Virus record (IMG/VR): IMGVR_UViG_2924862757_000006
DNA from: an uncultured virus (IMG/VR IMGVR_UViG_2924862757_000006)
Taxonomy: Duplodnaviria > Heunggongvirae > Uroviricota > Caudoviricetes
Reading direction: 5' to 3' (one strand)
Length of the DNA stretch: 64,000 nt
Below, piece after piece: positions 2,535-60,204 of the stretch. Numbering within the stretch: position 1 is the stretch's first letter; each line of letters starts with the position of its first letter. The notes beneath the pieces were generated by a model. The model did no database searches. It was not told the DNA's origin and saw only the letters and a program-made list of their open reading frames with translations. The translations under genes and the position numbers were made by a program.

Positions 2535-2915
2535 TTATCCGATATTTCTTTCATTCTTCAACATAGCCAGTTCACCCTTTAATTTTTGGTTTTCTTCCAA
2601 AAGCCGTTGGGTAAGCACTGTCTTCTCATTGATTTCATCCTGCAAATTGGCTATGGTATATACAATACTTTTCAATTTGTCCATTCCTGGTTCTGTTTCT
2701 TCTTTTTGAAGAAGCATGGAGCCTTTTCCTCTTAACAGCCATTCTGCGGATATTTCTTCATTTGAGAATAATATAGCATTGACTGTAGTCAAACTAAGTT
2801 CTCTCATTCCATTTAATTGGTTGGAGAATGTGTTGTCTTTTAATCCACATTTCATTGCAAATGCTCTTGTACTAAGTCCGTAGTATGCAATAATGTCTTT
2901 AATTCTTGTAATCAT
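2535..2915 (-). CDS. CI-like XRE/HTH prophage repressor with C-terminal coiled coil
   Basis: HTH (LSTRAFAMKCGLKDNTFSNQLNG) and ISAEWLLRGKGSM motif; divergent from the lytic operon; start moved to ATG 2915 because the upstream part is operator/promoter DNA. Confidence 0.85.
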   Translation of the reverse strand: MITRIKDIIAYYGLSTRAFAMKCGLKDNTFSNQLNGMRELSLTTVNAILFSNEEISAEWLLRGKGSMLLQKEETEPGMDKLKSIVYTIANLQDEINEKTVLTQRLLEENQKLKGELAMLKNERNIG

Positions 2916-2935
2916 ATGCAGTTTGTAAAAGTTAA

Positions 2936-2955
2936 ATTCTCTCAAATGAGAGAAT
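2936..2955. promoter_or_regulatory. Operator O1 (palindrome)
   Basis: ATTCTCTC-AAAT-GAGAGAAT perfect inverted repeat. Confidence 0.75.
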
Positions 2956-2970
2956 AATTTAAGTTTTAAA

Positions 2971-3002
2971 TTTGCATATTCTCTCAAACGAGAATATATT
3001 TG
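2971..3002 (+). promoter_or_regulatory. Rightward lytic promoter with operator O2 in the spacer
   Basis: TTTG (2971-74), 20 nt, TATATTTG (2995-3002); palindrome ATATTCTC-N6-GAGAATAT at 2976-2997 shares ATTCTCTCAAAYGAGA with O1. Confidence 0.8.
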
Positions 3003-3024
3003 CATCATCAATCAATCAATACTC

Positions 3025-3055
3025 CAAAAGTATAAAAAATGATTGATAAAACAAA
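3025..3055 (-). promoter_or_regulatory. Leftward (repressor) promoter
   Basis: Minus strand TTTG (3052-55), 19 nt, TACTTTTG (3025-32). Confidence 0.65.
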
Positions 3056-3405: not shown

Positions 3406-3642
3406 ATGGATAAAAGAACCGAACTAGAAATACAGCGAGACAAATATGAAGCTGTGATTGAAGAACGAGACGCGTTGATCAACTCTTTGAGAGGTGAAAA
3501 TGAAAAACTCAAACGAGATTTAGAATCAGAACGTGGATTTTATAGAGAGAAAGTTTCCCAATGTGATGATTTGAAGAAATTTATTGAATCGCAAAGAAAC
3601 TTAATGGATATAGTTTTGAAGAACAACCAAAGTATTCTCTAA
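3406..3642 (+). CDS. Coiled-coil hypothetical protein
   Basis: Heptad-rich ORF in the early operon. Confidence 0.7.
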   Translation: MDKRTELEIQRDKYEAVIEERDALINSLRGENEKLKRDLESERGFYREKVSQCDDLKKFIESQRNLMDIVLKNNQSIL

Positions 3643-3736
3643 CCCTCACTAAAGTCAAACCAAACCGCCGGTTATCCGGTACCCAGTCCGGTCTTTGAGC
3701 CTGCCCTTGAAGGGAGACTGGGAACAACAGAGAAGA

Positions 3737-3747
3737 GTTCTTTGACA
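3737..3747 (+). promoter_or_regulatory. boxA-like antitermination element
   Basis: GTTCTTTGACA resembles rrn/lambda boxA (GCTCTTTAACA); preceded by hairpins including CCCTTGAAGGG. Confidence 0.5.
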
Positions 3748-3771
3748 TATTGGTAAAATGGTGTTTTGGAA

Positions 3772-3886
3772 GCCGACACGTGCCGAAAGGGATTACTGAC
3801 GTAGGCGGGCTTCTCAACGATATAATGCTGTGGTTAATGGTCAAGCCGTATCGTTGTAAAACTAAATCAGTTAGACGTTTGTCGGC
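3772..3886 (+). ncRNA. Multi-stem structured non-coding element
   Basis: Closing stem GCCGACA/TGTCGGC, internal stem CAACGATA/TATCGTTG, GAAA tetraloop; no credible ORF. Confidence 0.5.
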
Positions 3887-3916
3887 AAATCGAGGTATTT
3901 GCTTTATGTATATAAA

Positions 3917-4050
3917 GGTGATGTAGCTCAGGCAGGTTAGAGCGCTGTGTGTGGTGGATGGTTGAGAGTTCGAGTCTCTCAAGAAATACTCTTAGCTTAA
4001 CGGAAGAGCACCACAAGCAGAGGTCGGCGGTTCGAATCCGCCCATCGCTT
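3917..4050 (+). ncRNA. tRNA-like element with a second, permuted T-arm/D-arm unit replacing the anticodon loop
   Basis: Acceptor GGTGATG/CATCGCT, D-arm GCTC..GAGC, T-arm GGCGG-TTCGAAT-CCGCC; insert has GAGAG-TTCGAGT-CTCTC then TAGCTTAACGGAAGAGC. Confidence 0.8.
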
Positions 4051-4077
4051 CAATGTTTAATTAAAGAATATAGAGTT

Positions 4078-4338
4078 ATGACAAGGTTTTTCCAGTTTGT
4101 AATAGTTGGGATAATATTAGGAGCGGTGCTTATGTTACTCGCTTCTATTGTTTCTTCGTGTTACTTTTTTATTACAACATTTACGTTGAGTGATTTTGAA
4201 GAAAGAACAGCTTCATTTGTTCTCGGTGCGGTAAGTGCTCTATTTACATACGGAATGTTCCGGATATTAATGAATGCCTTACAAGTATTTTCAGATAAGT
4301 TGGATGCAATAAAGAAGAGATATGAAAGCAATAATTGA
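4078..4338 (+). CDS. Two-TM membrane protein
   Basis: ATG at 4078 after an A-rich leader; the upstream extension in the ORF track overlaps the tRNA-like RNA. Confidence 0.65.
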   Translation: MTRFFQFVIVGIILGAVLMLLASIVSSCYFFITTFTLSDFEERTASFVLGAVSALFTYGMFRILMNALQVFSDKLDAIKKRYESNN

Positions 4339-4558: not shown

Positions 4559-4726
4559 ATGAAGAATTACATAACTCTAATTGTGATGTTCATCATCGGT
4601 CTATTTGTTGGAAATAGAATATTTAATCATGTAAATGCGTGGATAGGTGTGGGTGTAATCTTGTTCACGATATTTTTTGTCACATATAAATTAATAAAAG
4701 CACTGAAAAATGAGAAGAAAGATTGA
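4559..4726 (+). CDS. Small two-TM protein coupled to the SPFH gene
   Basis: 55-aa hydrophobic ORF (MKNYITLIVMF...), below the ORF-track cutoff, overlapping the start of 4710. Confidence 0.6.
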   Translation: MKNYITLIVMFIIGLFVGNRIFNHVNAWIGVGVILFTIFFVTYKLIKALKNEKKD

Positions 4727-5519
4727 TTGTCTGTTTTTGGCATTGATTGCCATTATTTTATTTGCATCGTGTGAAAGAGTTGCTCCTAATTATGCCGGTG
4801 TGCTCATGGAGAATTACGGTAAACAGGGGAAAGATGATTTTAAGGTAGTTTCGGGCAAAGTATCTACATGGGAATGGGGTACGGAGCTATTTCAAGTTCC
4901 TTTGTTTGACCAACGTGGAGAATTCGCAGAGCCAGTAACATTAAAGGCTGCTGACAATACGGAGTTTACAGCACGTCCGACTTATTCCTATAAGGTGATG
5001 AAGAATAGGGCTATTGATATTGTATTTGACAACAAGCATATTGATAAAGCCGATACTCCATCAGGAAAGGATGGCTTTATGCAATCGTTGGAAGATAATA
5101 TCTTGGAACCTCGTATTTATGACCTTATTAAGGAGGAAAGCCGAAAACATAAGACTGATAGCCTGATGGCGGATGGTGGTTCGTTAGTTTTTGAAAAGAG
5201 ACTGGAGCAAATAGTAGATAAAGAGTTTGATAAACGAGGATTACAATTACTTACTTTTTCTGCACAGTTGGAGTTTTCAAGAGCTGTTCGTGATAAGATT
5301 GATAGTCGCAATGAAGTAAATACCAATATATCTGTTCTCGATCAGAAAATTGAAGAGCAGAAGAAACAAAATGAATTGGAACGATTGAAAACGGAACAGG
5401 CTCTTATTACATCGAAAGGGTTGACTAAAGAAATCCTGTATAAGCAGTTTATTGATAAATGGGATGGAAAAACACCGCTCTATGGTATTGCTCCTGATTT
5501 TCTGAAAATAACTCAATAA
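4710..5519 (+). CDS. SPFH/band 7 (prohibitin-like) lipoprotein
   Basis: Lipobox LFASC, SPFH-like core, coiled coil and IDKWDGKTP tail. Confidence 0.85.
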   Translation: MRRKIDCLFLALIAIILFASCERVAPNYAGVLMENYGKQGKDDFKVVSGKVSTWEWGTELFQVPLFDQRGEFAEPVTLKAADNTEFTARPTYSYKVMKNRAIDIVFDNKHIDKADTPSGKDGFMQSLEDNILEPRIYDLIKEESRKHKTDSLMADGGSLVFEKRLEQIVDKEFDKRGLQLLTFSAQLEFSRAVRDKIDSRNEVNTNISVLDQKIEEQKKQNELERLKTEQALITSKGLTKEILYKQFIDKWDGKTPLYGIAPDFLKITQ

Positions 5520-7126: not shown

Positions 7127-7197
7127 GCCGGGATAGCTCAGTTGGTTAGAGCGCATGTTTCTACATGAGGTCAGCGGTTCGAATCCGTTTCCCGGCT
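7127..7197 (+). ncRNA. tRNA-like element with a 4-nt anticodon loop
   Basis: Acceptor GCCGGGA/TCCCGGC, D-arm, T-arm AGCGG-TTCGAAT-CCGTT; anticodon arm CATGT-TTCT-ACATG. Confidence 0.85.
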
Positions 7198-7293
7198 CAA
7201 CTCAATCAGAGTTAAGTAACCCGTGAGGGGGAAAATTATGTTTGTATCAATAACAATTCAATCAATGTAGCCGGAAGCGTCTGGCTACGACCT

Positions 7294-7391
7294 GAAGGAA
7301 TGGCGGAATTGGTAGACGCAAGTATGCAGATAGATTGAAGAAAGTCATACATAGGTAATCTGTCATCCCGGTTCGAGTCCGGGTTCCTTCA
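7294..7391 (+). ncRNA. tRNA-Leu-like element with an oversized anticodon loop
   Basis: Acceptor GAAGGAA/TTCCTTC, Leu-type D-arm GGCGGAATTGGTAGACGC, T-arm CCCGG-TTCGAGT-CCGGG; GTATG/CATAC stem closes a 19-nt loop. Confidence 0.8.
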
Positions 7392-7618: not shown

Positions 7619-7685
7619 GGATGGCTGGTGTAATTGGCAGCATACGCAGATATGCGTGATGTGGGTTCGATCCCCACGCCATTCA
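7619..7685 (+). ncRNA. tRNA-like element with a 4-nt anticodon loop
   Basis: Acceptor GGATGGC/GCCATTC, T-arm GTGGG-TTCGATC-CCCAC; anticodon arm ACGCA-GATA-TGCGT. Confidence 0.8.
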
Positions 7686-7786
7686 CCCTTCTGATCCTAA
7701 TTAAATTATAGTAGTTCATGAGTTTTGTTTTGTGTTTGTGATTGGGGTGTATGGTCTGTGAAGATAGTGCACCTTTTTAATTAATC

Positions 7787-7869
7787 GGGCGGATATGTAT
7801 ATCGTTGGTTGAAACTGCGGTGATGTGCACCAATATTCCGTGAGACCGGTTCGACTCCGGTTCCGTCCA
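7787..7869 (+). ncRNA. tRNA-like element with degenerate D and anticodon arms
   Basis: Acceptor GGGCGGA/TCCGTCC, T-arm ACCGG-TTCGACT-CCGGT. Confidence 0.7.
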
Positions 7870-7963
7870 CTAGCATTTACATTATGTATAAATCAGGGAG
7901 CCGTACACCCTTCAAGCGTAGCCGTTCCATAAGGTACATTGGATTATTCATTTTCTTATTTTT

Positions 7964-18831: not shown

Positions 18832-19488
18832 ATGACAGAGATTATTCAAGTCTGCCTACTTGATTTTAATAAGGGGCAGCTCACGGGATTGCCGAAAAAT
18901 CCACGTTTTTTTCGTGATTACCGCTTTGAAGCGATGAAGAAAAGCATTCAGGATTCGCCAGAGATGCTTGAGCTTCGAGAACTTATAGTTTTTCCCTACA
19001 ATGATGGCAGATATATTGTTGTTTGTGGTAATTTACGTTTGCGAGCTTGCAAGGAGTTAGGTTATAAAGAACTGCCTTGTAAAATTCTGGCACCTGATAC
19101 CCCCGTTAAGAAGTTGAGGGAATATGCCACTAAAGATAATGTCAATTTTGGTGAGAATGATTTGGACGTTATGGAAAACGAGTGGAATAAGGCGGAACTC
19201 CAAGATTGGGGCATCGAATTTGCCCCGGAGAAGAAAGAGGATGAATTTAAAGAGCGCTTCGATGCCATCACGGATGATACAGCCATTTATCCTCTCATTC
19301 CAAAGTATGACGAAAAACATGAGTTGTTTATCATCACCTCAAGTAATGAGGTAGATAGCAACTGGCTTCGTGAAAGGCTGGACATGCAGCACATGAAGTC
19401 GTACAAAACCGGGAAAATAAGTAAATCCAATGTAATTGATATAAAAGACGTTCGCCATGCCCTGCAAGATAGTAATACCAAGTCATAA
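18832..19488 (+). CDS. ParB/Srx N-terminal domain protein
   Basis: KNPR, VVCGNLRLRACKELG, KDN motifs. Confidence 0.82.
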   Translation: MTEIIQVCLLDFNKGQLTGLPKNPRFFRDYRFEAMKKSIQDSPEMLELRELIVFPYNDGRYIVVCGNLRLRACKELGYKELPCKILAPDTPVKKLREYATKDNVNFGENDLDVMENEWNKAELQDWGIEFAPEKKEDEFKERFDAITDDTAIYPLIPKYDEKHELFIITSSNEVDSNWLRERLDMQHMKSYKTGKISKSNVIDIKDVRHALQDSNTKS

Positions 19489-20209
19489 ACGCCATGACCG
19501 GGTGTTCGCTAAAAAGTTGGTGAACGATCCTATCATTTGCGTTGCTGAAAGTCAAGCTGACTTATATCAACAATTTAACCCGGAATGTGAAATTGTTACT
19601 CATCCTGACGACGTTATGGGCCTCATCCCGAAACGTAACTGGATGGCAAAGCATTTTGGAGAACTTTTCATGCTTGATGATGATGTCCATGCCTGCAAAC
19701 CTATTTATGTGGAAAAAGGAGAACCTAGCCGGATAAAGGATAAAGATAAGATAACCAATATCATTCAGTCATTATTTGAGATGGCCAGTATGATGGATGT
19801 ACATCTGTTTGGCTTCACCGCTCGGATATCGCCGGTAATGTATGATGAATCCGCTTTTCTTTCTCTTTCGAAAATGATAACCGGTTGCAGTTATGGAGTA
19901 ATCTATAACAAAAACACTTGGTGGAATGAGGAAATACGTTTGAAGGAAGATTTTTGGATTTCTTGTTACATGAAGTACAAAGAACGTAAGGTTTTAACCG
20001 ATTTGCGGTATAATTTTGAGCAAAAGAACACTTTTGTAAACGCTGGTGGGCTTGCTTCTATAAGGAATCAGGAAGAGGAACGTAAATCTATCCTCTTTAT
20101 CAAAAAGAATTTTGGTGATAGTATTTTGCTAAAGAGTGCAACCACTAATGGGAAAGACAAAACAAAGCAGCTCGTTCAATATAATATATCATGCAAATTC
20201 AAATTCTAA
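19457..20209 (+). CDS. GT-A glycosyltransferase, TAGT/GREB1-like
   Basis: IVIPSHKR, KRNW, MLDDD, KEDF, NAGG motifs; coupled to a ParB gene. Confidence 0.7.
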   Translation: MPCKIVIPSHKRHDRVFAKKLVNDPIICVAESQADLYQQFNPECEIVTHPDDVMGLIPKRNWMAKHFGELFMLDDDVHACKPIYVEKGEPSRIKDKDKITNIIQSLFEMASMMDVHLFGFTARISPVMYDESAFLSLSKMITGCSYGVIYNKNTWWNEEIRLKEDFWISCYMKYKERKVLTDLRYNFEQKNTFVNAGGLASIRNQEEERKSILFIKKNFGDSILLKSATTNGKDKTKQLVQYNISCKFKF

Positions 20210-22430: not shown

Positions 22431-23153
22431 ATGAAATATTATGCTTCAGTCAGCTTTGGAAAGGATTCCTTGGCAATGCTTTTCATGCTAATAGATAAAG
22501 GATATCAGTTGGATGAAGTCGTTTTCTATGATACAGGTATGGAATTTCAGGCAATCTATAACACTCGTGATGCTGTTCTTCCAATTCTTAAAAAACTTGG
22601 CATTAAATATACAGAACTGCATCCGGAGCAACCTTTTCTTTGGACAATGTTTGAAAGGCCGGTTAAGAAAAGAGGGACCAATATTATCCATAAAAAAGGA
22701 TATAGTTGGTGTGGGGGAACATGCCGATGGGGAACGAGTGAAAAACTTCGTGCGTTGAAAGCTCACACAAAAGATGGAATTGATTATGTCGGTATTGCTG
22801 CCGATGAGATGCATCGCTTTGAAAAAGAAAATCGGGCTAATCGGGTTTTACCACTTCGTGACTGGGGGGTTACAGAAGCAGATGCACTCCAGTACTGTTA
22901 TACAAAAGGCTTTGTTTGGTGTGAGGATGGAGTAAGGCTATATGAACTACTTGATCGTGTGAGTTGCTGGTGTTGTGGAAATAAGAATTTGAAGGAGTTG
23001 AAGAATATGTATTTGTACCTTCCATGGTATTGGAAAAAGCTGAAAGAACTTCAGTTAAATACCGATAGGCCCTATCGTCGTAATAGTGGAGAAACCATTT
23101 TTGATTTAGAGGAAAGATTTAGACGTGAATTGTTGAAGAAAAAAACTGATTAA
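22431..23153 (+). CDS. PAPS reductase-family (PP-loop) protein
   Basis: SFGKDS, DTGMEF, GIAADE, RVSCWCC. Confidence 0.88.
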   Translation: MKYYASVSFGKDSLAMLFMLIDKGYQLDEVVFYDTGMEFQAIYNTRDAVLPILKKLGIKYTELHPEQPFLWTMFERPVKKRGTNIIHKKGYSWCGGTCRWGTSEKLRALKAHTKDGIDYVGIAADEMHRFEKENRANRVLPLRDWGVTEADALQYCYTKGFVWCEDGVRLYELLDRVSCWCCGNKNLKELKNMYLYLPWYWKKLKELQLNTDRPYRRNSGETIFDLEERFRRELLKKKTD

Positions 23154-28074: not shown

Positions 28075-29088
28075 TCATTTGTTTGTAGAATCAGCTATAA
28101 ATTCATGAAAAAGAGAGTTAATAGTCTGAATTACGATTTCTTTTTCTGTATCATATCCAGATATAGGAAGTTCGAGGGCAATAATGTTATTGAATATATC
28201 AAATTTCTTTAATAAAGAAATTGTTTTGAGAGTTGATTGCGAGCTCATTGAATTGAATAGTATGACTGTTAACTCATCTGAGGATAATTGTGCTCTAAAT
28301 ATTTTAGAATAGTCATTGGGGTATTTAAAATTTTGGATTGAATCCAACAGATAATATATGTTTCTATGGTATTGCCCTAAATATTGTCCATATTGCCCAT
28401 ATAAATAATCTCCGACATTTCTTATGAACTTATAGAGCTGTTGGTATCTTTTTTCTATACAAATCCTATTACAGATTGATGCAACAATTATACGATACAT
28501 TTCATGAATTTTGCTTGACATTATTATGCCTTTTATTTCGTATATAGTATCGTAATAATATTTGGGATCCCTACTTTTTAATAATACATTTAATTCTGTA
28601 GTTGAATGAACTCCAAACTTAGTATAAATCTCCAGAAATGCTTGCTCGTCTAACTTACTGACTTGTGTTAATTCTGATGGAAATTTTTCTCCATCTTTTA
28701 TAAAATGATATATTACATAAGCATAGAATAATGAACGCGCTTCATGTGCGTATGCTTTGAATGCTTCAATTCCTGTTTTCTCAATTTGGTGTTCAGTATA
28801 TTTGTTGGTGTCGACTTGATGCTGATATAATCCCAACAAATTATAAAATGTTGACCTTTCATTATCAATTTGTCTATTTATTTGTGAGTCTTTTATTGTA
28901 TAAAGTACTCCAATGAAAGCAAGTAATCCTGTAATTGAACCTAAATAACTGCCGAAATCAGCAAAATCATTATGATTATAGGACAGTCCGTGATGAAATC
29001 TATATACATATACTAATATTAATATTAGAGTAAATATGGCTGTTGCAATTAATGCGTATTTGATTATATCTATTTGCGGTCTTTTCAT
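28075..29088 (-). CDS. Putative phage abortive-infection (AbiC-like) membrane protein
   Basis: N-terminal TMs with FGSYLG; C-terminal YSKIFRAQLSSDELTVILFN; own -7 TACATTTG at 29118-29125 (minus); AT-rich and reverse-oriented. Confidence 0.72.
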   Translation of the reverse strand: MKRPQIDIIKYALIATAIFTLILILVYVYRFHHGLSYNHNDFADFGSYLGSITGLLAFIGVLYTIKDSQINRQIDNERSTFYNLLGLYQHQVDTNKYTEHQIEKTGIEAFKAYAHEARSLFYAYVIYHFIKDGEKFPSELTQVSKLDEQAFLEIYTKFGVHSTTELNVLLKSRDPKYYYDTIYEIKGIIMSSKIHEMYRIIVASICNRICIEKRYQQLYKFIRNVGDYLYGQYGQYLGQYHRNIYYLLDSIQNFKYPNDYSKIFRAQLSSDELTVILFNSMSSQSTLKTISLLKKFDIFNNIIALELPISGYDTEKEIVIQTINSLFHEFIADSTNK

Positions 29089-29221: not shown

Positions 29222-30016
29222 GTGATGATGAGAAGAATGATTGTAACCGGCAGTGAGGGGTTTATAGGAAAAGCCCTTTGCCGAGAATTAGTAAAAAGAG
29301 GTATTGAAGTCATAGGACTTGACCGAAAGTGCGGTACTGAAGCTACGAAAGTATGCGAGTATCTAAAGAATGAGGATATTGATTGTGTGTTCCATTTAGC
29401 GGCACAAACAAGCGTTTTTAATGGAAACCTGGAACAAATCAGGAAGGATAACATTGATACTTTCATGCGAGTAGCTAATGCTTGCAATCAAAATCATGTG
29501 AAGTTAGTATATGCTAGTTCGTCAACAGCGAATCCGGAGAATACCACTTCTATGTATGGAATAAGCAAGTATTTCGATGAACAGTATGCATCTATCTATT
29601 GTAAGGCTGCGACCGGGTGCCGGCTGCATAATGTATATGGACCTAATCCGCGAAAAAGAACTCTTCTCTGGTTCCTGATGGAAAAGGAAAACGTGTCATT
29701 ATACAACTGTGGTCAGAATATCCGGTGCTTCACTTACATAGATGATGTCATTGAGGGGCTTATCTATTCGGTGGGTTGTAACCGGCAACTTATCAATATT
29801 TGTAACGTCCAACCTGTGACTACTATGTATTTTGCTTCTTTAGTAAAATACTACAAACCGTTTGAAATTGAGCTAATTAATGAAAAACGGGATTTTGACA
29901 ATTTAGAGCAGTCGGTGAACCGGGATATCTATTTAGTACCTTTGTCTTACACATCTGTCGAGGACGGAGTAAAGAAGATCTTTGATGAAAGGAAAGGGAA
30001 AGATATGTCGTATTGA
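29222..30016 (+). CDS. NAD-dependent epimerase/dehydratase
   Basis: TGSEGFIG, HLAA, ASSS, YGISK, RLHNVYGP. Confidence 0.92.
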   Translation: MMMRRMIVTGSEGFIGKALCRELVKRGIEVIGLDRKCGTEATKVCEYLKNEDIDCVFHLAAQTSVFNGNLEQIRKDNIDTFMRVANACNQNHVKLVYASSSTANPENTTSMYGISKYFDEQYASIYCKAATGCRLHNVYGPNPRKRTLLWFLMEKENVSLYNCGQNIRCFTYIDDVIEGLIYSVGCNRQLINICNVQPVTTMYFASLVKYYKPFEIELINEKRDFDNLEQSVNRDIYLVPLSYTSVEDGVKKIFDERKGKDMSY

Positions 30017-30548
30017 TGACTGGGATAAGCCGGAAGCGGTGAAATATAAGAGCTGGTCTCATCAGGAACGGTTATGTGATCTGAAAGAAAAGGTATCACT
30101 TCATAAAAAGGGTGATATCTATTACATCTCCCAGTTCACCCGTTCCAAGACTGGTACCAGCTTTTCAGAAATTAAACAGTCGGAGGAACTTGCATCATTC
30201 TTTGCAGAGAGAGCGTGTGAGTTTCTCCACCGCTTCATAGTAGGGGGATATGAAGGATGGTGTATAGTCACCACACCGCGACGGAGACACAACGAGGGCT
30301 TTCATTTTTCAACCTCTATCTGTACGAAAATTGCGGGGGCGGTGAAAATACCATTCTATGAGAATGCAATCCAGTGCCTAACTAAAGATAGATTGAATCC
30401 AGAATTCTTTCTTCTTCGTCCGATAAAGGAAAAGAAAATAATAGTGTATGATGACATATTAACAACTGGCAGCACACTGCTTGCCACCTATGAGCTTTTA
30501 AAGGATAGAGAGCAGCTTCTTTTTCTCGTAGGAATAAATAACAAATGA
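29982..30548 (+). CDS. Phosphoribosyltransferase-fold protein
   Basis: IIVYDDILTTGSTL PRPP-binding motif. Confidence 0.85.
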   Translation: MMKGKGKICRIDDWDKPEAVKYKSWSHQERLCDLKEKVSLHKKGDIYYISQFTRSKTGTSFSEIKQSEELASFFAERACEFLHRFIVGGYEGWCIVTTPRRRHNEGFHFSTSICTKIAGAVKIPFYENAIQCLTKDRLNPEFFLLRPIKEKKIIVYDDILTTGSTLLATYELLKDREQLLFLVGINNK

Positions 30549-56590: not shown

Positions 56591-57379
56591 ATGACGAATG
56601 AACAAAGCGCAACGCTGCTTCGCTTGAATAAACAGGCACAAGTAGCAGCACTGAACGCCGTTGGATTCTCGGATATCACCGAGAATTCCCGCGCATCTGA
56701 ATTTGGACAACGTATCAAGTGGGCTGCCGGCCTGCTTGATTTGAATCTTGCCTGTAACCGCATCTCGGATAACTCCAAATGGTATTTCACCCGTGAGGAA
56801 TGGGATTCCCTCACGGTTACCAACAAACAGTTGTTTATCAAACGCGGTCTTCGTATCCGGGCACATGGACACTCCTTCGTAATTTCCGCCCAGGAGTGCT
56901 ATAATGCCGACATGACTACCACCTTCTACTGGGGCGGTCAGGGCAAAGCCATAGATGGCCTGAATCAAAAAGGACTGGGCGCCATGTATGGCTGCTTCAC
57001 GGGTGAGGAAGATACTGACCTCATTATCGCAACTCTGAAAGACCAAAATAATAGTGGTGTGATCGGTGCGCCAGCTGCCGAAGCCGCCCGTGCATACCGT
57101 GCCTACACTTTGGAAAGTGACGGTATCGAGGATGAATCTAACTGGTTCCTTCCTTCATCCGGCCAAATGCTTCTGATGTACCGCTATCGCGATAAAATCA
57201 ATGAGATGATGCGTACCTTTTGGAGTAGTGACAGTATGCTGATGACTGATAAATACTACTGGTCATCAACAATTTGGGATACTAACTCCGCCTGGGCGTT
57301 CGAACTGAATACCGGGCGTATTACGAATCAAAACAAAAATTCAAATCTTCTCCATGTGAGAGCTGTTGCTTCTGAATAG
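56591..57379 (+). CDS. C-type-lectin-fold tail protein, non-diversified paralog of the DGR target
   Basis: Aligns end to end with 57405..58214 (GAPAAEAARAY, TLESDGIED, WxLP, YWSST). Confidence 0.82.
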   Translation: MTNEQSATLLRLNKQAQVAALNAVGFSDITENSRASEFGQRIKWAAGLLDLNLACNRISDNSKWYFTREEWDSLTVTNKQLFIKRGLRIRAHGHSFVISAQECYNADMTTTFYWGGQGKAIDGLNQKGLGAMYGCFTGEEDTDLIIATLKDQNNSGVIGAPAAEAARAYRAYTLESDGIEDESNWFLPSSGQMLLMYRYRDKINEMMRTFWSSDSMLMTDKYYWSSTIWDTNSAWAFELNTGRITNQNKNSNLLHVRAVASE

Positions 57380-57404
57380 TATTAACCTAAAATTATATAA
57401 TAAA

Positions 57405-58214
57405 ATGGATAAAAATATCGCTAACGCAATGCTTATGCGCCTGAATAAACAAGACCAAGTTGCAGCTTTGCAATCAATCGGTTTTACAACCGTCAATGAA
57501 AATACCCCGGCGAGTGACATCGCCAAGTATATGCAATGGGCAGGTACGCTTCTTGACCTTTCTTTGGCTACTCTCCGAATTGAAGACGGTGAACAAGTCT
57601 TTTTCACGGCTTCCGAATGGAACTCCATGAGCGCAAATAACCGCTCCAAGTATATCCGTATTGGCATCCGACTTCGTGCCGAATGCCACCAGTTCATTAT
57701 CGCCAAAAGTGACTGCGTTGACGCAGGCGGCAACAAAACGTTCAAATGGGGTGGCTACGGAACCGACTTACGCGGCCTGAAAAACTACGGTAGTGGTAAC
57801 CAAGGACTCTATGATACCTTCGACGGCAAGGAAAATACCGATGTTATAATAGAAACCCTTGCAGGCGTCAAGGACACCCAGGGAACTGTCGGCGCCCCTG
57901 CCGCCGAAGCTGCCAGAGCCTATAAAGCCTGTACGCTTGAATCTGACGGAATTGAAGATACAACCGTGTGGAACCTGCCCGCATTGGGAGAACTTATGCT
58001 TATGGCCAAGTATAAAACCGAAATCAATGAGCTCATAACTTCTATGTTTGGTAATCAAAATATGTTTACAAACGATTGGTATTGGTCTAGTACCGAATAT
58101 GACGCTTCCAGCAGTTGGGCCGTGGGCTTCCTCGGCGGCAGCGTCAACACGTACGGCCGCCAGGGCGCGTACCGGGTTCGTCCCCTCGCCGCAATAAACA
58201 CTTTATCCCTTTAA
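57405..58214 (+). CDS. DGR target protein (CLec-fold receptor-binding protein)
   Basis: YWSSTE...W.V.F...RVRP C-terminus encoded by the VR; start moved to ATG 57405. Confidence 0.92.
   Translation: MDKNIANAMLMRLNKQDQVAALQSIGFTTVNENTPASDIAKYMQWAGTLLDLSLATLRIEDGEQVFFTASEWNSMSANNRSKYIRIGIRLRAECHQFIIAKSDCVDAGGNKTFKWGGYGTDLRGLKNYGSGNQGLYDTFDGKENTDVIIETLAGVKDTQGTVGAPAAEAARAYKACTLESDGIEDTTVWNLPALGELMLMAKYKTEINELITSMFGNQNMFTNDWYWSSTEYDASSSWAVGFLGGSVNTYGRQGAYRVRPLAAINTLSL
58104..58194 (+). repeat. DGR variable repeat (VR)
   Basis: 91-nt match to the TR with 15 mismatches, all opposite TR adenines. Confidence 0.97.
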
Positions 58215-58243
58215 TTCTTTATCCCTTAGAGAGTTAGCTAAAT

Positions 58244-58265
58244 AAAAGCCCCGACAGGGGCTTTT
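58244..58265 (+). promoter_or_regulatory. DGR target-recognition hairpin
   Basis: AAAAGCCCC-GACA-GGGGCTTTT; GRNA-type loop 50 nt downstream of the VR. Confidence 0.8.
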
Positions 58266-58360
58266 CAGTTTCACTTTTTTGAGCTAAAATTGTGTTAATT
58301 GCTTTACAGTTATTAACTTTGCGCCCTCTAATACATACATTAAAATATTAAAAAATTAAC

Positions 58361-58768
58361 ATGGCACTTACACAAGACCTTCCTATATCAAATTCGATGT
58401 ATAAGCTTCTGAACCTTATCATTGATGCCCGGCAACAATTCCCCAAGGCGTTCCGGTATGAATTTGGTACGGAGTTGATGATGCTTGCCGTCCATTGTTG
58501 CGAATATATCCGTTATGCAAATACAGATATGAACCTTGAGCACCGTGCAGATTATCTGATGAAGTTTTTGTGTGAGTTTGATGCATTGAAATTACTGCTA
58601 AGAGTGTGTGAAGAACGACATTTGACCAGCCTGACTCAAACTGCCGAAATCTGTCTGCTTGCAGAGAGCATCGGTAAGCAAAGTACCGGTTGGTACAAAA
58701 AAACGGTTGCAGATCTCCAACGGCAAAAAGCTAACGGATCGCAACAAGTCGCAAAGCCGGAGTCATAA
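58361..58768 (+). CDS. avd: DGR accessory variability determinant (four-helix bundle)
   Basis: LPI...FPKAFRYEFG...IGKQSTGW; lies between VR and TR/RT. Confidence 0.88.
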   Translation: MALTQDLPISNSMYKLLNLIIDARQQFPKAFRYEFGTELMMLAVHCCEYIRYANTDMNLEHRADYLMKFLCEFDALKLLLRVCEERHLTSLTQTAEICLLAESIGKQSTGWYKKTVADLQRQKANGSQQVAKPES

Positions 58769-58782
58769 TCGCCAAGGGGATT

Positions 58783-60204
58783 ATGAGTGAGCAATTAGAA
58801 TTATTTATTGGGCATCCCCCCGGTGATGAGCCGGGAAAGACTAAGATAGCGGATGCAACGGCTTCCAGCAGTTGGAACGTGAACTTCAACAACGGCAACG
58901 TCAACACGAACAACCGCCAGAACGCGAACCGGGTTCGTCCCCTCGCCGCAACAGGTAATATAATCTATGACATACTTCTTAGCAGTATTTTCGAAGCATC
59001 CGAAGATTGTGCCAGGCAGAAAAGAACGAGTACGGATTGTGTTGAGTTCTATAATGATTATCAGTCCGCATTGGTGCGGCTATGGTATTCTATTATTTAC
59101 GGTGAATATGTACCGGACTTTTCAAAAGTATTCATACGGACTTACCCGGTATATCGGGAGGTTTTTGCCGCCGCTTTCATTGATCGTGTTGTCCATCACT
59201 GGATCGCTCTTCGTATCGAGCCGATCTTAGAGGAACGCTTCCGGGAACAAGGAAACGTCTCCAAGAACTGCCGGAAAGGTGAGGGATGCTTGTCTGCCGT
59301 GCACTATCTGAATAACATGATAGTCGAGGTCAGTGAGAATTATACTGCCGATGCGTACATTTTCAAAGATGACCTGTTCAGTTTCTTCATGTCTATCTCG
59401 AAATCGTTGGTATGGGAAATGCTGAACATATTCGTAAGGGACAATTATAAAGGCGATGATATTGAATGTTTGCTTTACCTTCTAGCCGTTACTATCTTTC
59501 ATTGTCCACAAAATAAGTGTATCAGACGCTCTCCCGTCTCCATGTGGGACAAACTTCCCAGTAATAAAAGTCTGTTTCATAATGACCCTGACAGGGGAGT
59601 GGCTATCGGGAACCTGCCGTCACAACTCATAGCTAACTTCTTGGCGTCTGTTTTCGATTATTATGTAATGGTGATGTTAGGATTCAGGCATTATGTACGC
59701 TTTGTTGATGACTTTTGTATTGTGGTGAAATCTCCGGAAGAAATATTGTCCAAAGTCCATCTTCTTGATGGTTTCCTGAAAGAACAACTCCTTTTACGGT
59801 TGCATCCACGCAAACTGTATCTTCAGCATTATAAAAAAGGAGTCTTGTTTGTAGGGGCGTTCATTTTGCCTGGTAGAATTTATGTATCTAACAGGGTGGT
59901 TGGTAACACATATAACGCTGTCAGGAAATTTAATAAAATAGCTGAAAATGGATTTGCAGAAGCGTATGTTGAGAAATTTGTGAGTACAATGAATTCTTAT
60001 TATGGCTTGATGAAACACTTTGCAACGTACAATATCCGCCGTAGAATTGCAGCGATGTTACTTCCTGAATGGTGGGAATATGTTTATATCGAAGGACATT
60101 TTGAAAAGTTTGTATTGAAGAATAAATATAACCATAGAAAACAACTAATTAAACATATCAAAAAACATGGATCAAAAAAATATCTTACCGCGTGGGATTG
60201 CTAA
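58783..60204 (+). CDS. DGR reverse transcriptase
   Basis: REVFAA.FIDRVVHH, IGNLPSQ (DGR-type SQ), YVRFVDDF, FVG. Confidence 0.96.
   Translation: MSEQLELFIGHPPGDEPGKTKIADATASSSWNVNFNNGNVNTNNRQNANRVRPLAATGNIIYDILLSSIFEASEDCARQKRTSTDCVEFYNDYQSALVRLWYSIIYGEYVPDFSKVFIRTYPVYREVFAAAFIDRVVHHWIALRIEPILEERFREQGNVSKNCRKGEGCLSAVHYLNNMIVEVSENYTADAYIFKDDLFSFFMSISKSLVWEMLNIFVRDNYKGDDIECLLYLLAVTIFHCPQNKCIRRSPVSMWDKLPSNKSLFHNDPDRGVAIGNLPSQLIANFLASVFDYYVMVMLGFRHYVRFVDDFCIVVKSPEEILSKVHLLDGFLKEQLLLRLHPRKLYLQHYKKGVLFVGAFILPGRIYVSNRVVGNTYNAVRKFNKIAENGFAEAYVEKFVSTMNSYYGLMKHFATYNIRRRIAAMLLPEWWEYVYIEGHFEKFVLKNKYNHRKQLIKHIKKHGSKKYLTAWDC
58861..58951 (+). ncRNA. DGR template repeat (TR)
   Basis: Ten AAC codons; otherwise identical to the VR. 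Confidence 0.97.

What the first reader, a model, noticed from the sequence alone, without database searches (positions are those of the whole stretch)
3917..4050. Double-elbow tRNA: a permuted tRNA domain fused into the anticodon stem
Seen: the anticodon stem of an otherwise normal cloverleaf extends to about 12 bp (CTGTGTGTGGTG/CACCACAAGCAG). It ends in a T-arm (3964-3980), a tiny hairpin and a D-arm-like TAGCTTAACGGAAGAGC (3993-4009), in the order T then D. Established: this permuted order with a closed acceptor hairpin is how YrlA-type Y RNA tRNA-like domains are built. Inference: an RNA with two elbows back to back that could bind or bridge elbow-recognising proteins. An alternative CTCTT/AAGAG pairing competes with the inner D-arm, and no Ro60 gene was seen in the window.
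Basis: partly seen in the sequence, partly recalled or inferred. Interest (0 to 1): 0.76.

Follow-up and report, generated by a model that had tools for sequence, protein, structure and literature searches.

The report
Two-cornered phage tRNA look-alike lacking anticodon
A virus of gut bacteria carries a small RNA gene shaped like two transfer RNAs joined where their code-reading loops should be, so it cannot read the genetic code and most likely imitates tRNA to occupy host proteins; the same design recurs in unrelated phages, but its target is unknown.

Summary
Confirmed. 3917-4050 is a 134-nt tRNA shell whose anticodon loop is replaced by a circularly permuted, YrlA-like tRNA body (T arm, vestigial closed acceptor, D arm). 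Two 5-position anticodon stems meet end to end. It lies in the early region of a Bacteroides-type prophage. A close family (38 sequences, 153 loci) covaries in the outer stems and keeps both inner arms (69 of 70 in a sample not chosen by them). About 15 distant versions (48-69% identical) covary in the inner T stem and central helix, and the 15:48 pairs follow the two-body fold. It is not a Y RNA: no Ro60 motif, and no TROVE gene in the window or in 6 carrier genomes. New here: all 51 other tRNA shells in these prophage loci also lack an anticodon arm (host control 25 of 25 normal), and one site swaps cargoes of 19-110 nt. These phages seem to use tRNA as a scaffold. Most likely role: an uncleavable two-elbow decoy for host tRNA-binding or tRNA-attacking proteins (inferred, about 40%). 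Folding energy favours another inner fold; expression is unproven. This scan noted the same design before on other DNA; I found no paper describing it.

The parts
3917..4050 (+). Whole two-elbow RNA gene, 134 nt, no encoded CCA
   Evidence: Rfam tRNA 41 bits; model R1 128 bits (the sequence is in the model's seed)
3917..3923 (+). Outer acceptor stem, 5' strand (pairs with 4043-4049)
   Evidence: 7 of 7 pairs change on both sides in 30 family rows, 99% of cells paired
3924..3943 (+). Outer U8-A9 and D arm; G15 at 3931, G18-G19 at 3935-3936
   Evidence: sequence; 100% paired
3945..3954 (+). Central helix, 5' strand: outer anticodon stem (3945-3949) followed directly by the 3' strand of the inner anticodon stem (3950-3954)
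   Evidence: pair probabilities 0.88-1.0; 5 of 10 pairs change on both sides in 8 versions, 90% paired
3955..3963 (+). Inner variable region, 9 nt, ending in U48 (3963), partner of inner A15
   Evidence: A15:U48 in 38 of 38 family sequences
3964..3980 (+). Inner T arm (5 bp, 7-nt T loop)
   Evidence: intact in 70 of 70 helix-anchored matches; 4 of 5 pairs change on both sides in 18 versions
3981..3992 (+). Closed, vestigial inner acceptor (12-nt linker, 3 bp at best); a 4-6 bp capped hairpin in most distant versions
3993..4009 (+). Inner U8-A9 and D arm; A15 at 4000, G18-G19 at 4002-4003
   Evidence: intact in 69 of 70; 100% paired in 18 versions, 3 of 4 pairs invariant; ViennaRNA gives it probability 0.0
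4011..4020 (+). Central helix, 3' strand; its last bases continue into a 29-nt stretch 97% identical to the 3' half of host-type tRNA-Val(UAC), including part of that anticodon loop
4021..4050 (+). Outer variable loop (C48 at 4025), T arm (4026-4042), acceptor 3' strand (4043-4049), discriminator U (4050)
   Evidence: 3 of 5 T-stem pairs change on both sides
3736..3748 (+). boxA-like 13-mer in the non-coding leader, about 170 nt upstream
   Evidence: same 13-mer lies about 290 nt before a 16S rRNA gene in G001; a core of it lies 177-179 nt upstream in 49 of 49 full-flank loci of this subtype but in none of several other subtypes; the name boxA is recalled
7127..7198 (+). Sister shell: tRNA body with a 4-nt loop in place of the anticodon loop
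7294..7391 (+). Sister shell with a 47-nt cargo between D and T arms
7619..7686 (+). Sister shell with a short arm closed by a 4-nt loop
   Evidence: Rfam tRNA 39.1 bits
7787..7870 (+). Divergent sister shell with a 31-nt middle
   Evidence: R1 21.1 bits

Best explanation
A phage non-coding RNA made on a natural tRNA scaffold. SHOWN by sequence comparison: an intact tRNA shell (7-bp acceptor, D and T arms) whose anticodon loop is replaced by a second, circularly permuted tRNA body, giving two elbows at the ends of one 10-position helix, one open acceptor end, one sealed end and no anticodon. SHOWN: it is one of several interchangeable cargoes in anticodon-less shells of the prophage early region. 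INFERRED from tRNA biology: it is transcribed with the early operon, cut out by RNase P and 3' trimming, possibly given CCA, and accumulates as a stable RNA. INFERRED, least sure: it serves as a two-site, uncleavable decoy that occupies host proteins gripping the tRNA elbow or T arm, most plausibly tRNA-attacking anti-phage effectors, during lytic growth. About 0.85 for the fold, about 0.4 for the decoy role.
For: Fold: 99.8% of 1020 cells paired in 30 family rows, outer acceptor 7 of 7 covarying; 96.8% of 536 cells in 18 versions, inner T stem 4 of 5 covarying; central helix 5 of 10 covarying in 8 versions. 15:48 pair: two-body assignment fits 33 of 38 (outer) and 38 of 38 (inner) family sequences, the tandem assignment 6 and 1 of 38; six distant versions whose two pairs differ also fit it (L131, L193, L322, L546, L600, L625). 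Selection: inner T 70 of 70 and inner D 69 of 70 intact in a sample found by the central helix alone. Recurrence: about 15 versions at 48-69% identity, including records titled Kitasatospora, Planctomycetales and Phycisphaerae; the flanks with Pfam hits are phage-like. Context: 0 of 51 other shells in 162 family loci have a normal anticodon arm, against 25 of 25 in host tRNA loci. Precedent for elbow or T-arm contacts by a defence nuclease: Cas12a3 grips the T arm and acceptor (PMC12851939, passages); OLD severs anticodon stems (PMC13648713, passages).
Against: No binding partner, phenotype or expression is shown. RNA-library contigs of 4 studies cover the element but cannot show transcription, ends or level. 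ViennaRNA prefers another inner fold by 5.9 kcal/mol here and by a median 3.9 (0.6-9.0) over 38 family sequences, and the family's few inner changes do not break it; the same program gives a real host tRNA-Val D arm only 0.18. The inner arms of the close family are nearly invariant, so they give no covariation and could reflect recent spread. Two distant versions fail one 15:48 pair (L158, L294), and 5 of 38 family sequences have A15 with C48 outside. The phage-tRNA counter-defence I read about needs a decoding tRNA: changing the anticodon or stem-loops abolished rescue from retron-Eco7 (PMC11555353, passages). Many family loci are near-identical gut phage records, not independent.
Confidence: 0.4

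Rival explanations
1. Processing signal: the shell is an RNase P / 3'-trimming site that punctuates and stabilises the early polycistronic transcript; the inner body is stable filler.
For: Five shells lie between early genes in this window; cargo at one site varies from 19 to 110 nt; acceptor, D and T arms, which processing enzymes read (established knowledge), are what is kept; a boxA-like site lies upstream.
Against: A second elbow with a matched 15:48 pair, kept in 69 of 70 copies and recurring in unrelated phages, is more than a cut site needs.
Confidence: 0.2
2. Adaptor: the two elbows bind two different tRNA-recognising machines and hold them at a fixed distance.
For: A 10-position helix is kept in W, L099, L155, L193, L625 and, with one bulge, L322 and L600; in YrlA the tRNA-like module is described as the effector-binding end of a tether (10.1101/312249).
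Against: Other versions have shorter or interrupted helices (L106, L123, L131, L158, L519); no partner gene is linked: the nearby SPFH-like gene is found in 7 of 132 loci with 900 nt or more downstream.
Confidence: 0.15
3. Relic: a duplicated, decayed tRNA pair without function, spread by hitch-hiking in a successful prophage.
For: Tandem tRNA-Asn arrays with damaged acceptor stems pass the same parser (L343, L349, L353); several versions have near-identical halves (L106, L519, L584), so duplication is a likely origin; one copy has lost the inner D arm.
Against: Compensatory changes in all 7 acceptor pairs and the T stems; cross pairing (7 of 7) beats tandem pairing (3 and 1 of 7) in this sequence; it sits in many different flanks.
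Confidence: 0.08
4. A Y RNA (YrlA) or b7a-tRNA variant that works with host Ro60, RtcB or a Band-7 protein in RNA repair.
For: Same permuted domain; related permuted units lie next to Band_7 genes in 16 of 18 chromosomal loci examined, with RtcB in 8; RtcB in 4 of 6 carrier genomes; an SPFH-like gene lies 660 nt downstream here.
Against: No GNCGAAN0-1G motif in the RNA; TROVE in 0 of 6 carrier genomes (5 of 151 in the genus), 0 of 68 window ORFs, 0 of 5 phage records with distant versions; SPFH gene not linked.
Confidence: 0.07
5. Two-state RNA: in this family the inner domain flips between the elbow and the long hairpin 3962-3971/3990-3999, acting as a switch.
For: The hairpin is the computed minimum.
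Against: Only 71.5% of cells pair across 18 versions against 100% for the inner T and D stems.
Confidence: 0.06
6. Intron or permuted tRNA gene: the insert is removed, or the inner body is recut, to give a working tRNA.
For: The insert sits at the anticodon, and a tRNA-Val loop remnant is present.
Against: No intron family matches. By the sequence, removal after position 33 leaves G33, C37 and a G31.A39 mismatch; the other register lacks position 26. The inner acceptor is at most 3-4 bp, and only a 7-bp YrlA acceptor was an RNase P substrate (PMC4201824). No joint in contigs of 4 RNA runs (contigs drop rare forms).
Confidence: 0.04

Closest known systems
YrlA (Y RNA-like A; Rfam RF02553; PMC4201824; structure in 10.1101/312249)
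   Same: Circularly permuted tRNA body in the order variable region, T arm, closed acceptor, D arm; no anticodon loop; 15:48 pair kept; the anticodon stem runs on into a long helix; occurs in some phages.
   Different: The long helix ends in a second, open tRNA body, not in a Ro60-binding stem; no GNCGAAN0-1G motif; no Ro60 gene nearby or in carrier genomes; 21.7 bits against a gathering score of 69; inner acceptor vestigial.
Canonical tRNA (Rfam RF00005), nearest host type tRNA-Val(UAC)
   Same: Outer 7-bp acceptor, U8, D and T arms with invariant elbow bases; 3' half 97% identical over 29 nt to host tRNA-Val.
   Different: No anticodon loop; 134 nt; U at the discriminator position; second elbow.
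b7a-tRNA (band 7-associated tRNA; Burroughs and Aravind 2016, seen only as cited in 10.1101/312249)
   Same: tRNA-like ncRNA; my pattern also retrieved chains of permuted units before Band_7 genes in RtcB/RtcR operons.
   Different: Those are chromosomal RNA-repair operons; this element is in a prophage early region with no RtcB or TROVE gene and is not tied to its SPFH-like neighbour. I could not read the defining paper.
Phage tRNAs that counter tRNA-cleaving defences (retron-Eco7, PrrC, PARIS, OLD)
   Same: Phage-encoded tRNA-shaped RNA, plausibly aimed at the same conflict.
   Different: Those act by replacing a decoding tRNA (PMC11555353); this RNA cannot decode.
Engineered tRNA scaffolds (cargo placed in the anticodon stem; recalled, not read here)
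   Same: tRNA shell with cargo in place of the anticodon loop.
   Different: Here natural, with many cargoes, one of them a second tRNA body.
Circularly permuted tRNA genes of algae and archaea (passage in PMC10085705)
   Same: 3' half precedes 5' half.
   Different: Those are reprocessed to a standard tRNA; here neither body could yield one.

Membership tests
YrlA / Y RNA | Permuted tRNA-like domain (T arm, closed acceptor, D arm) with 15:48 pair | tested here: met
YrlA / Y RNA | Rfam RF02553 gathering score (69 bits) | tested here: not met
   21.7 bits
YrlA / Y RNA | GNCGAAN0-1G motif near the 5' end, in a terminal Ro60-binding stem | tested here: not met
   only match in 3601-4120 is at 3782, 135 nt upstream of the RNA; the termini form a tRNA acceptor stem
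YrlA / Y RNA | Encoded within about 4 kb of a Ro60 (TROVE) gene | tested here: not met
   none in 68 window ORFs, 87 ORFs of 10 loci, G001/G002, 6 carrier genomes, 5 phage records, 4 of them incomplete
YrlA / Y RNA | Bound by Ro60 in vivo; pseudouridine and dihydrouridine in the elbow | not testable with these tools
   needs experiment
Decoding tRNA | 7-bp acceptor stem, D arm, T arm | tested here: met
Decoding tRNA | 5-bp anticodon stem with a 7-nt loop, U33 and purine 37 | tested here: not met
   no loop; ARAGORN does not call it
Intron-containing or reprocessed permuted tRNA | Known intron family, or a splice product with a normal anticodon loop | tested here: not met
   no Rfam intron match; no register gives a normal loop (sequence)
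Intron-containing or reprocessed permuted tRNA | Ligated RNA product in cells | tested here: inconclusive
   no joint in contigs of 4 runs, which cannot show absence
b7a-tRNA | Encoded beside a Band-7 gene and RtcB | tested here: not met
   SPFH-like gene 660 nt downstream here but in 7 of 132 loci; no RtcB among window ORFs
b7a-tRNA | Match to the published b7a alignment | not testable with these tools
   paper not held
Tandem pair of tRNA genes | Each body closes its own acceptor stem and 15:48 pair | tested here: not met
   3 and 1 of 7 pairs against 7 of 7 crosswise; 15:48 fits 6 and 1 of 38

The most novel reading that the evidence does not exclude
Phages carry an undescribed class of multivalent tRNA-elbow RNAs, built by fusing tRNA bodies at their anticodon stems and delivered on natural tRNA scaffolds with swappable cargo. 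They act as RNA-only inhibitors of host tRNA-targeting immunity, a counter-defence that needs neither a protein nor decoding.
Probability: 0.3. Interest if true: 0.9.

Novelty: new variant of a known kind. Interest (0 to 1): 0.72.

Why it matters
Why phages carry tRNA genes is a long-standing question, and current answers need a decoding tRNA. These prophages keep tRNA shells while losing every anticodon arm, which isolates a role for tRNA shape alone. The two-elbow RNA is a small, deletable test object in a common gut phage, with natural one-elbow alleles at the same site as controls. It also shows the YrlA domain in use without Ro60, and such genes are missed or called pseudo-tRNAs by standard annotation.

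Tried and rejected
Own genome not held; G001 and G002 used as nearest carriers, and G002 lacks the element. BLASTN against 50,697 GenBank phages gave one 34-nt hit only. Rfam: no family at gathering level but tRNA. RNA evidence: only assembled contigs were offered; they span 3313-4036/4062 in 4 studies with no joint, which shows neither transcription nor absence of splicing. Model R1 also hits ordinary tandem tRNAs (up to 85 bits, in all 151 genomes), so only hits above 120 bits and 131-134 nt were counted. Rows dropped from the distant set: L343, L349, L353 (tandem tRNA-Asn; ARAGORN run on L343 and L349) and L274 (looks like a repair-operon chain, by eye). Of 103 helix-anchored matches, 33 lay outside any tRNA shell and were set aside; the six printed looked unrelated. 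A link to the SPFH-like gene was tested and rejected. Promoter scans were at chance level; a Bacteroides-type promoter pattern (recalled) at 2971-3002 is suggestive by position only. Ten paper searches found no description of a tRNA fused to a permuted tRNA or of anticodon-less shells in Bacteroides prophages; the library lacks most subscription papers, Burroughs and Aravind 2016 was not held, and I saw no supplements (those of PMC4201824 and PMC5737381 could list such RNAs). No protein folding or complex job was run, as no partner protein was identified.

Full report
Setting. The window is a temperate phage genome: repressor-like gene at 2535-3011 (PHROGs), then ERF, SSB, helicase, integrase, terminase, portal, capsid, tail and amidase genes (Pfam on 68 ORFs). 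The element lies in a non-coding stretch (3643-4077) of the rightward early region. The window's own assembly is not held. Near-identical copies occur in records titled Bacteroides (L225, L271, L309, L314, L318), so I call the host Bacteroides-type.

The observation. Rfam's tRNA model matches 3917-4050 at 41 bits with a 70-nt insert at the anticodon arm; ARAGORN skips it. The insert reads: 3' strand of an anticodon stem, 9-nt variable region, T arm (3964-3980), 12-nt linker, U8-A9 and D arm (3993-4009), 5' strand of an anticodon stem. The outer and inner anticodon stems join end to end into a 10-position helix with one G.A at the junction. A T arm followed by a D arm arises in 7 of 20,000 shuffles of the insert and nowhere else in the window. 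YrlA is the only full-model Rfam match over the insert, at 21.7 bits against a gathering score of 69.

Close family. In 30 aligned rows 99.8% of 1020 cells pair; all 7 acceptor pairs, 3 of 5 outer T pairs and 1 of 9 helix pairs change on both sides, and the inner arms are almost invariant. Because those scans required the inner arms, I drew a second sample by the central helix alone: of 103 matches 70 lay in a tRNA shell, with the inner T arm intact in 70 and the inner D arm in 69. A covariance model found 7 full-length copies above 120 bits in 6 of 151 genomes of G001's genus, as expected for prophage DNA. The element sits in many different flanks.

Distant versions. Generic patterns with spacings too short for tandem tRNAs gave about 15 other versions, 48-69% identical to this one. 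The strict parser returned 14 rows, of which I dropped 4 (three tandem tRNA-Asn arrays and one repair-operon chain); the metagenome scan added 8 rows from 119 loci, two of them repeats. In 18 aligned versions (8 family, 10 distant) 96.8% of 536 cells pair, the inner T stem changes on both sides at 4 of 5 pairs, and the inner D stem is 100% paired. The central helix covaries at 5 of 10 positions in 8 versions. These counts are not corrected for phylogeny, and T and D arms are tRNA-derived in any case. The more telling test is the 15:48 tertiary pair: here it is G:C outside and A:U inside, whereas a tandem reading would give G:U and A:C. The two-body assignment fits 33 and 38 of 38 family sequences, the tandem one 6 and 1. 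Six distant versions with unequal pairs also fit; L158 and L294 each fail one pair. Most distant versions seal the inner acceptor with a 4-6 bp hairpin; in this family it is vestigial. No TROVE or RtcB hit was found in 87 ORFs around 10 loci (8 distant, 2 family), whose Pfam hits are mostly phage genes.

Against the fold. ViennaRNA puts the two-elbow state 5.9 kcal/mol above a long inner hairpin here, and a median 3.9 above the minimum over the family. The program also gives a real host tRNA-Val D arm only 0.18. A two-state RNA in this family is not excluded.

Context that changes the reading. The window has four more tRNA shells (7127, 7294, 7619, 7787), none with a normal anticodon loop. In 162 loci carrying the element my parser found 51 other distinct shells, none with a canonical anticodon arm; on 24 host tRNA loci it found 25 shells, all canonical. 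Their middles run from 8 to 116 nt. After one conserved upstream hairpin, different phages carry middles of 19, 20, 29, 43, 89, 108 or 110 nt, or the two-elbow body (L309; L052, L070, L086 with a variant hairpin). The two-elbow RNA is thus one cargo of a natural tRNA-scaffold system. Its 3' half matches host tRNA-Val(UAC) over 29 nt, loop remnant included. Versions with near-identical halves (L106, L519, L584) and decaying tandem arrays (L343, L349, L353) suggest origin by tRNA duplication and cross pairing, perhaps more than once (inference).

Expression. Twenty runs hold the stretch, 16 on record as RNA. Contigs from 4 runs of 4 studies cover it without a joint. Contigs cannot show transcription, ends or level, so expression is unproven.

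Mechanism. Shown: two tRNA bodies, no anticodon, selection on both. Inferred: release from the early transcript by RNase P and 3' trimming, since the outer acceptor is a full 7 bp; CCA addition is plausible because the host tRNA genes examined also lack an encoded CCA. The inner acceptor is too short for RNase P by the YrlA precedent (PMC4201824). What all shells keep is the elbow and acceptor arm, and what they all lose is the part cut by anticodon nucleases. I therefore favour an uncleavable decoy with two binding sites (0.4). Against it, the retron-Eco7 rescue needs a decoding tRNA (PMC11555353), and no target is known. Rivals: processing signal (0.2), adaptor (0.15), relic (0.08), Y RNA or b7a partner (0.07), switch (0.06), spliced tRNA (0.04).

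Comparison with known systems. It is built like YrlA in its inner half but is not a Y RNA: no GNCGAAN0-1G motif in the RNA and no TROVE gene in the window, in 6 carrier genomes (5 of 151 in the genus have one) or in 5 phage records. The same patterns retrieved chromosomal chains of permuted units beside Band_7 genes in 16 of 18 loci examined (61 of their 127 ORFs scanned), with RtcB in 8. These resemble the b7a-tRNA/YrlA repair operons cited in 10.1101/312249. The window's SPFH-like gene is present in only 7 of 132 family loci with enough downstream DNA.

Papers seen. PMC4201824: parts 1-3 of 5. 10.1101/312249: parts 1-2 of 4 and one passage. PMC10085705, PMC5737381, PMC13648713, PMC11555353, PMC12851939: search passages only. 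Others: listings only. Burroughs and Aravind 2016: not held. No supplements seen. The names boxA, Levitt-type numbering of this RNA and engineered tRNA scaffolds rest on my own knowledge. Ten searches found no description of this architecture. Earlier notes of this scan describe the same design or a fully permuted relative on other DNA; they are unchecked and not counted as support; I took the word 'dumbbell' from one for my working notes.

Verdict. A real, conserved, recurrent RNA architecture assembled from known parts, with no printed description that I could find and no shown function. New variant of the tRNA-mimic kind; interest 0.72.

Noticed in passing
window 7127-7198, 7294-7391, 7619-7686, 7787-7870 and family loci: A set of anticodon-less tRNA shells with cargoes of 8-116 nt between D and T arms: 51 distinct, none canonical. 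Worth a study of its own.
   Followed up: partly
L153 (103-nt cargo) and L309 (98-nt cargo): Other multi-elbow designs: one cargo looks like a tRNA nested in normal orientation through its acceptor stem, another holds two T-loop-like hairpins (by eye).
   Followed up: no
L144, L151, L175, L187, L188, L195, L120, L204 (viral contigs): Fully permuted two-unit RNAs (T, closed acceptor, D, T, closed acceptor, D) with the ends in an extended stem; like earlier notes e1-6219840 and e1-5689008.
   Followed up: partly
L205-L256 and other genome loci (Flavobacterium, Sphingobacterium, Acidovorax, clostridia, Treponema titles): Chains of permuted tRNA-like units and extra T arms next to Band_7/SPFH genes in 16 of 18 loci, with RtcB, RtcR, WYL, RlaP or TROVE nearby; no YrlA match at gathering level in 13 loci scanned.
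   Followed up: partly
window 3736-3748: boxA-like 13-mer also found about 290 nt upstream of a 16S rRNA gene in G001; suggests rRNA-type antitermination of the early operon. It is also the start of Rfam DUF2693 (weak hit).
   Followed up: partly
window 4710-5519: Phage lipoprotein (phrog_200) with SPFH/Band_7 look-alikes in the ESM Atlas (score 0.98; Band_7 on 39-57% of members) but no Pfam hit.
   Followed up: partly
L343, L349, L353: Abutting tRNA-Asn(GTT) repeats with damaged acceptor stems; a possible intermediate on the way to cross-paired two-body RNAs.
   Followed up: partly
window 56591-60204: Diversity-generating-retroelement-like set: bAvd and reverse transcriptase genes after two Lcl_C-domain genes.
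   Followed up: no
window 19457-20209, 22431-23153, 28075-29088, 29222-30548: TET-associated glycosyltransferase, PAPS-reductase-domain, putative AbiC, epimerase and phosphoribosyltransferase genes: possible DNA modification and superinfection defence.
   Followed up: no
window 2936-3055: Two similar palindromes (2936-2955 and within 2971-3002) and facing Bacteroides-type promoter patterns between the repressor and early genes; pattern counts are at chance level.
   Followed up: no
L162; one locus: Damaged family copies: one lacks 7 nt before the outer T arm, one lacks most of the inner D arm.
   Followed up: no
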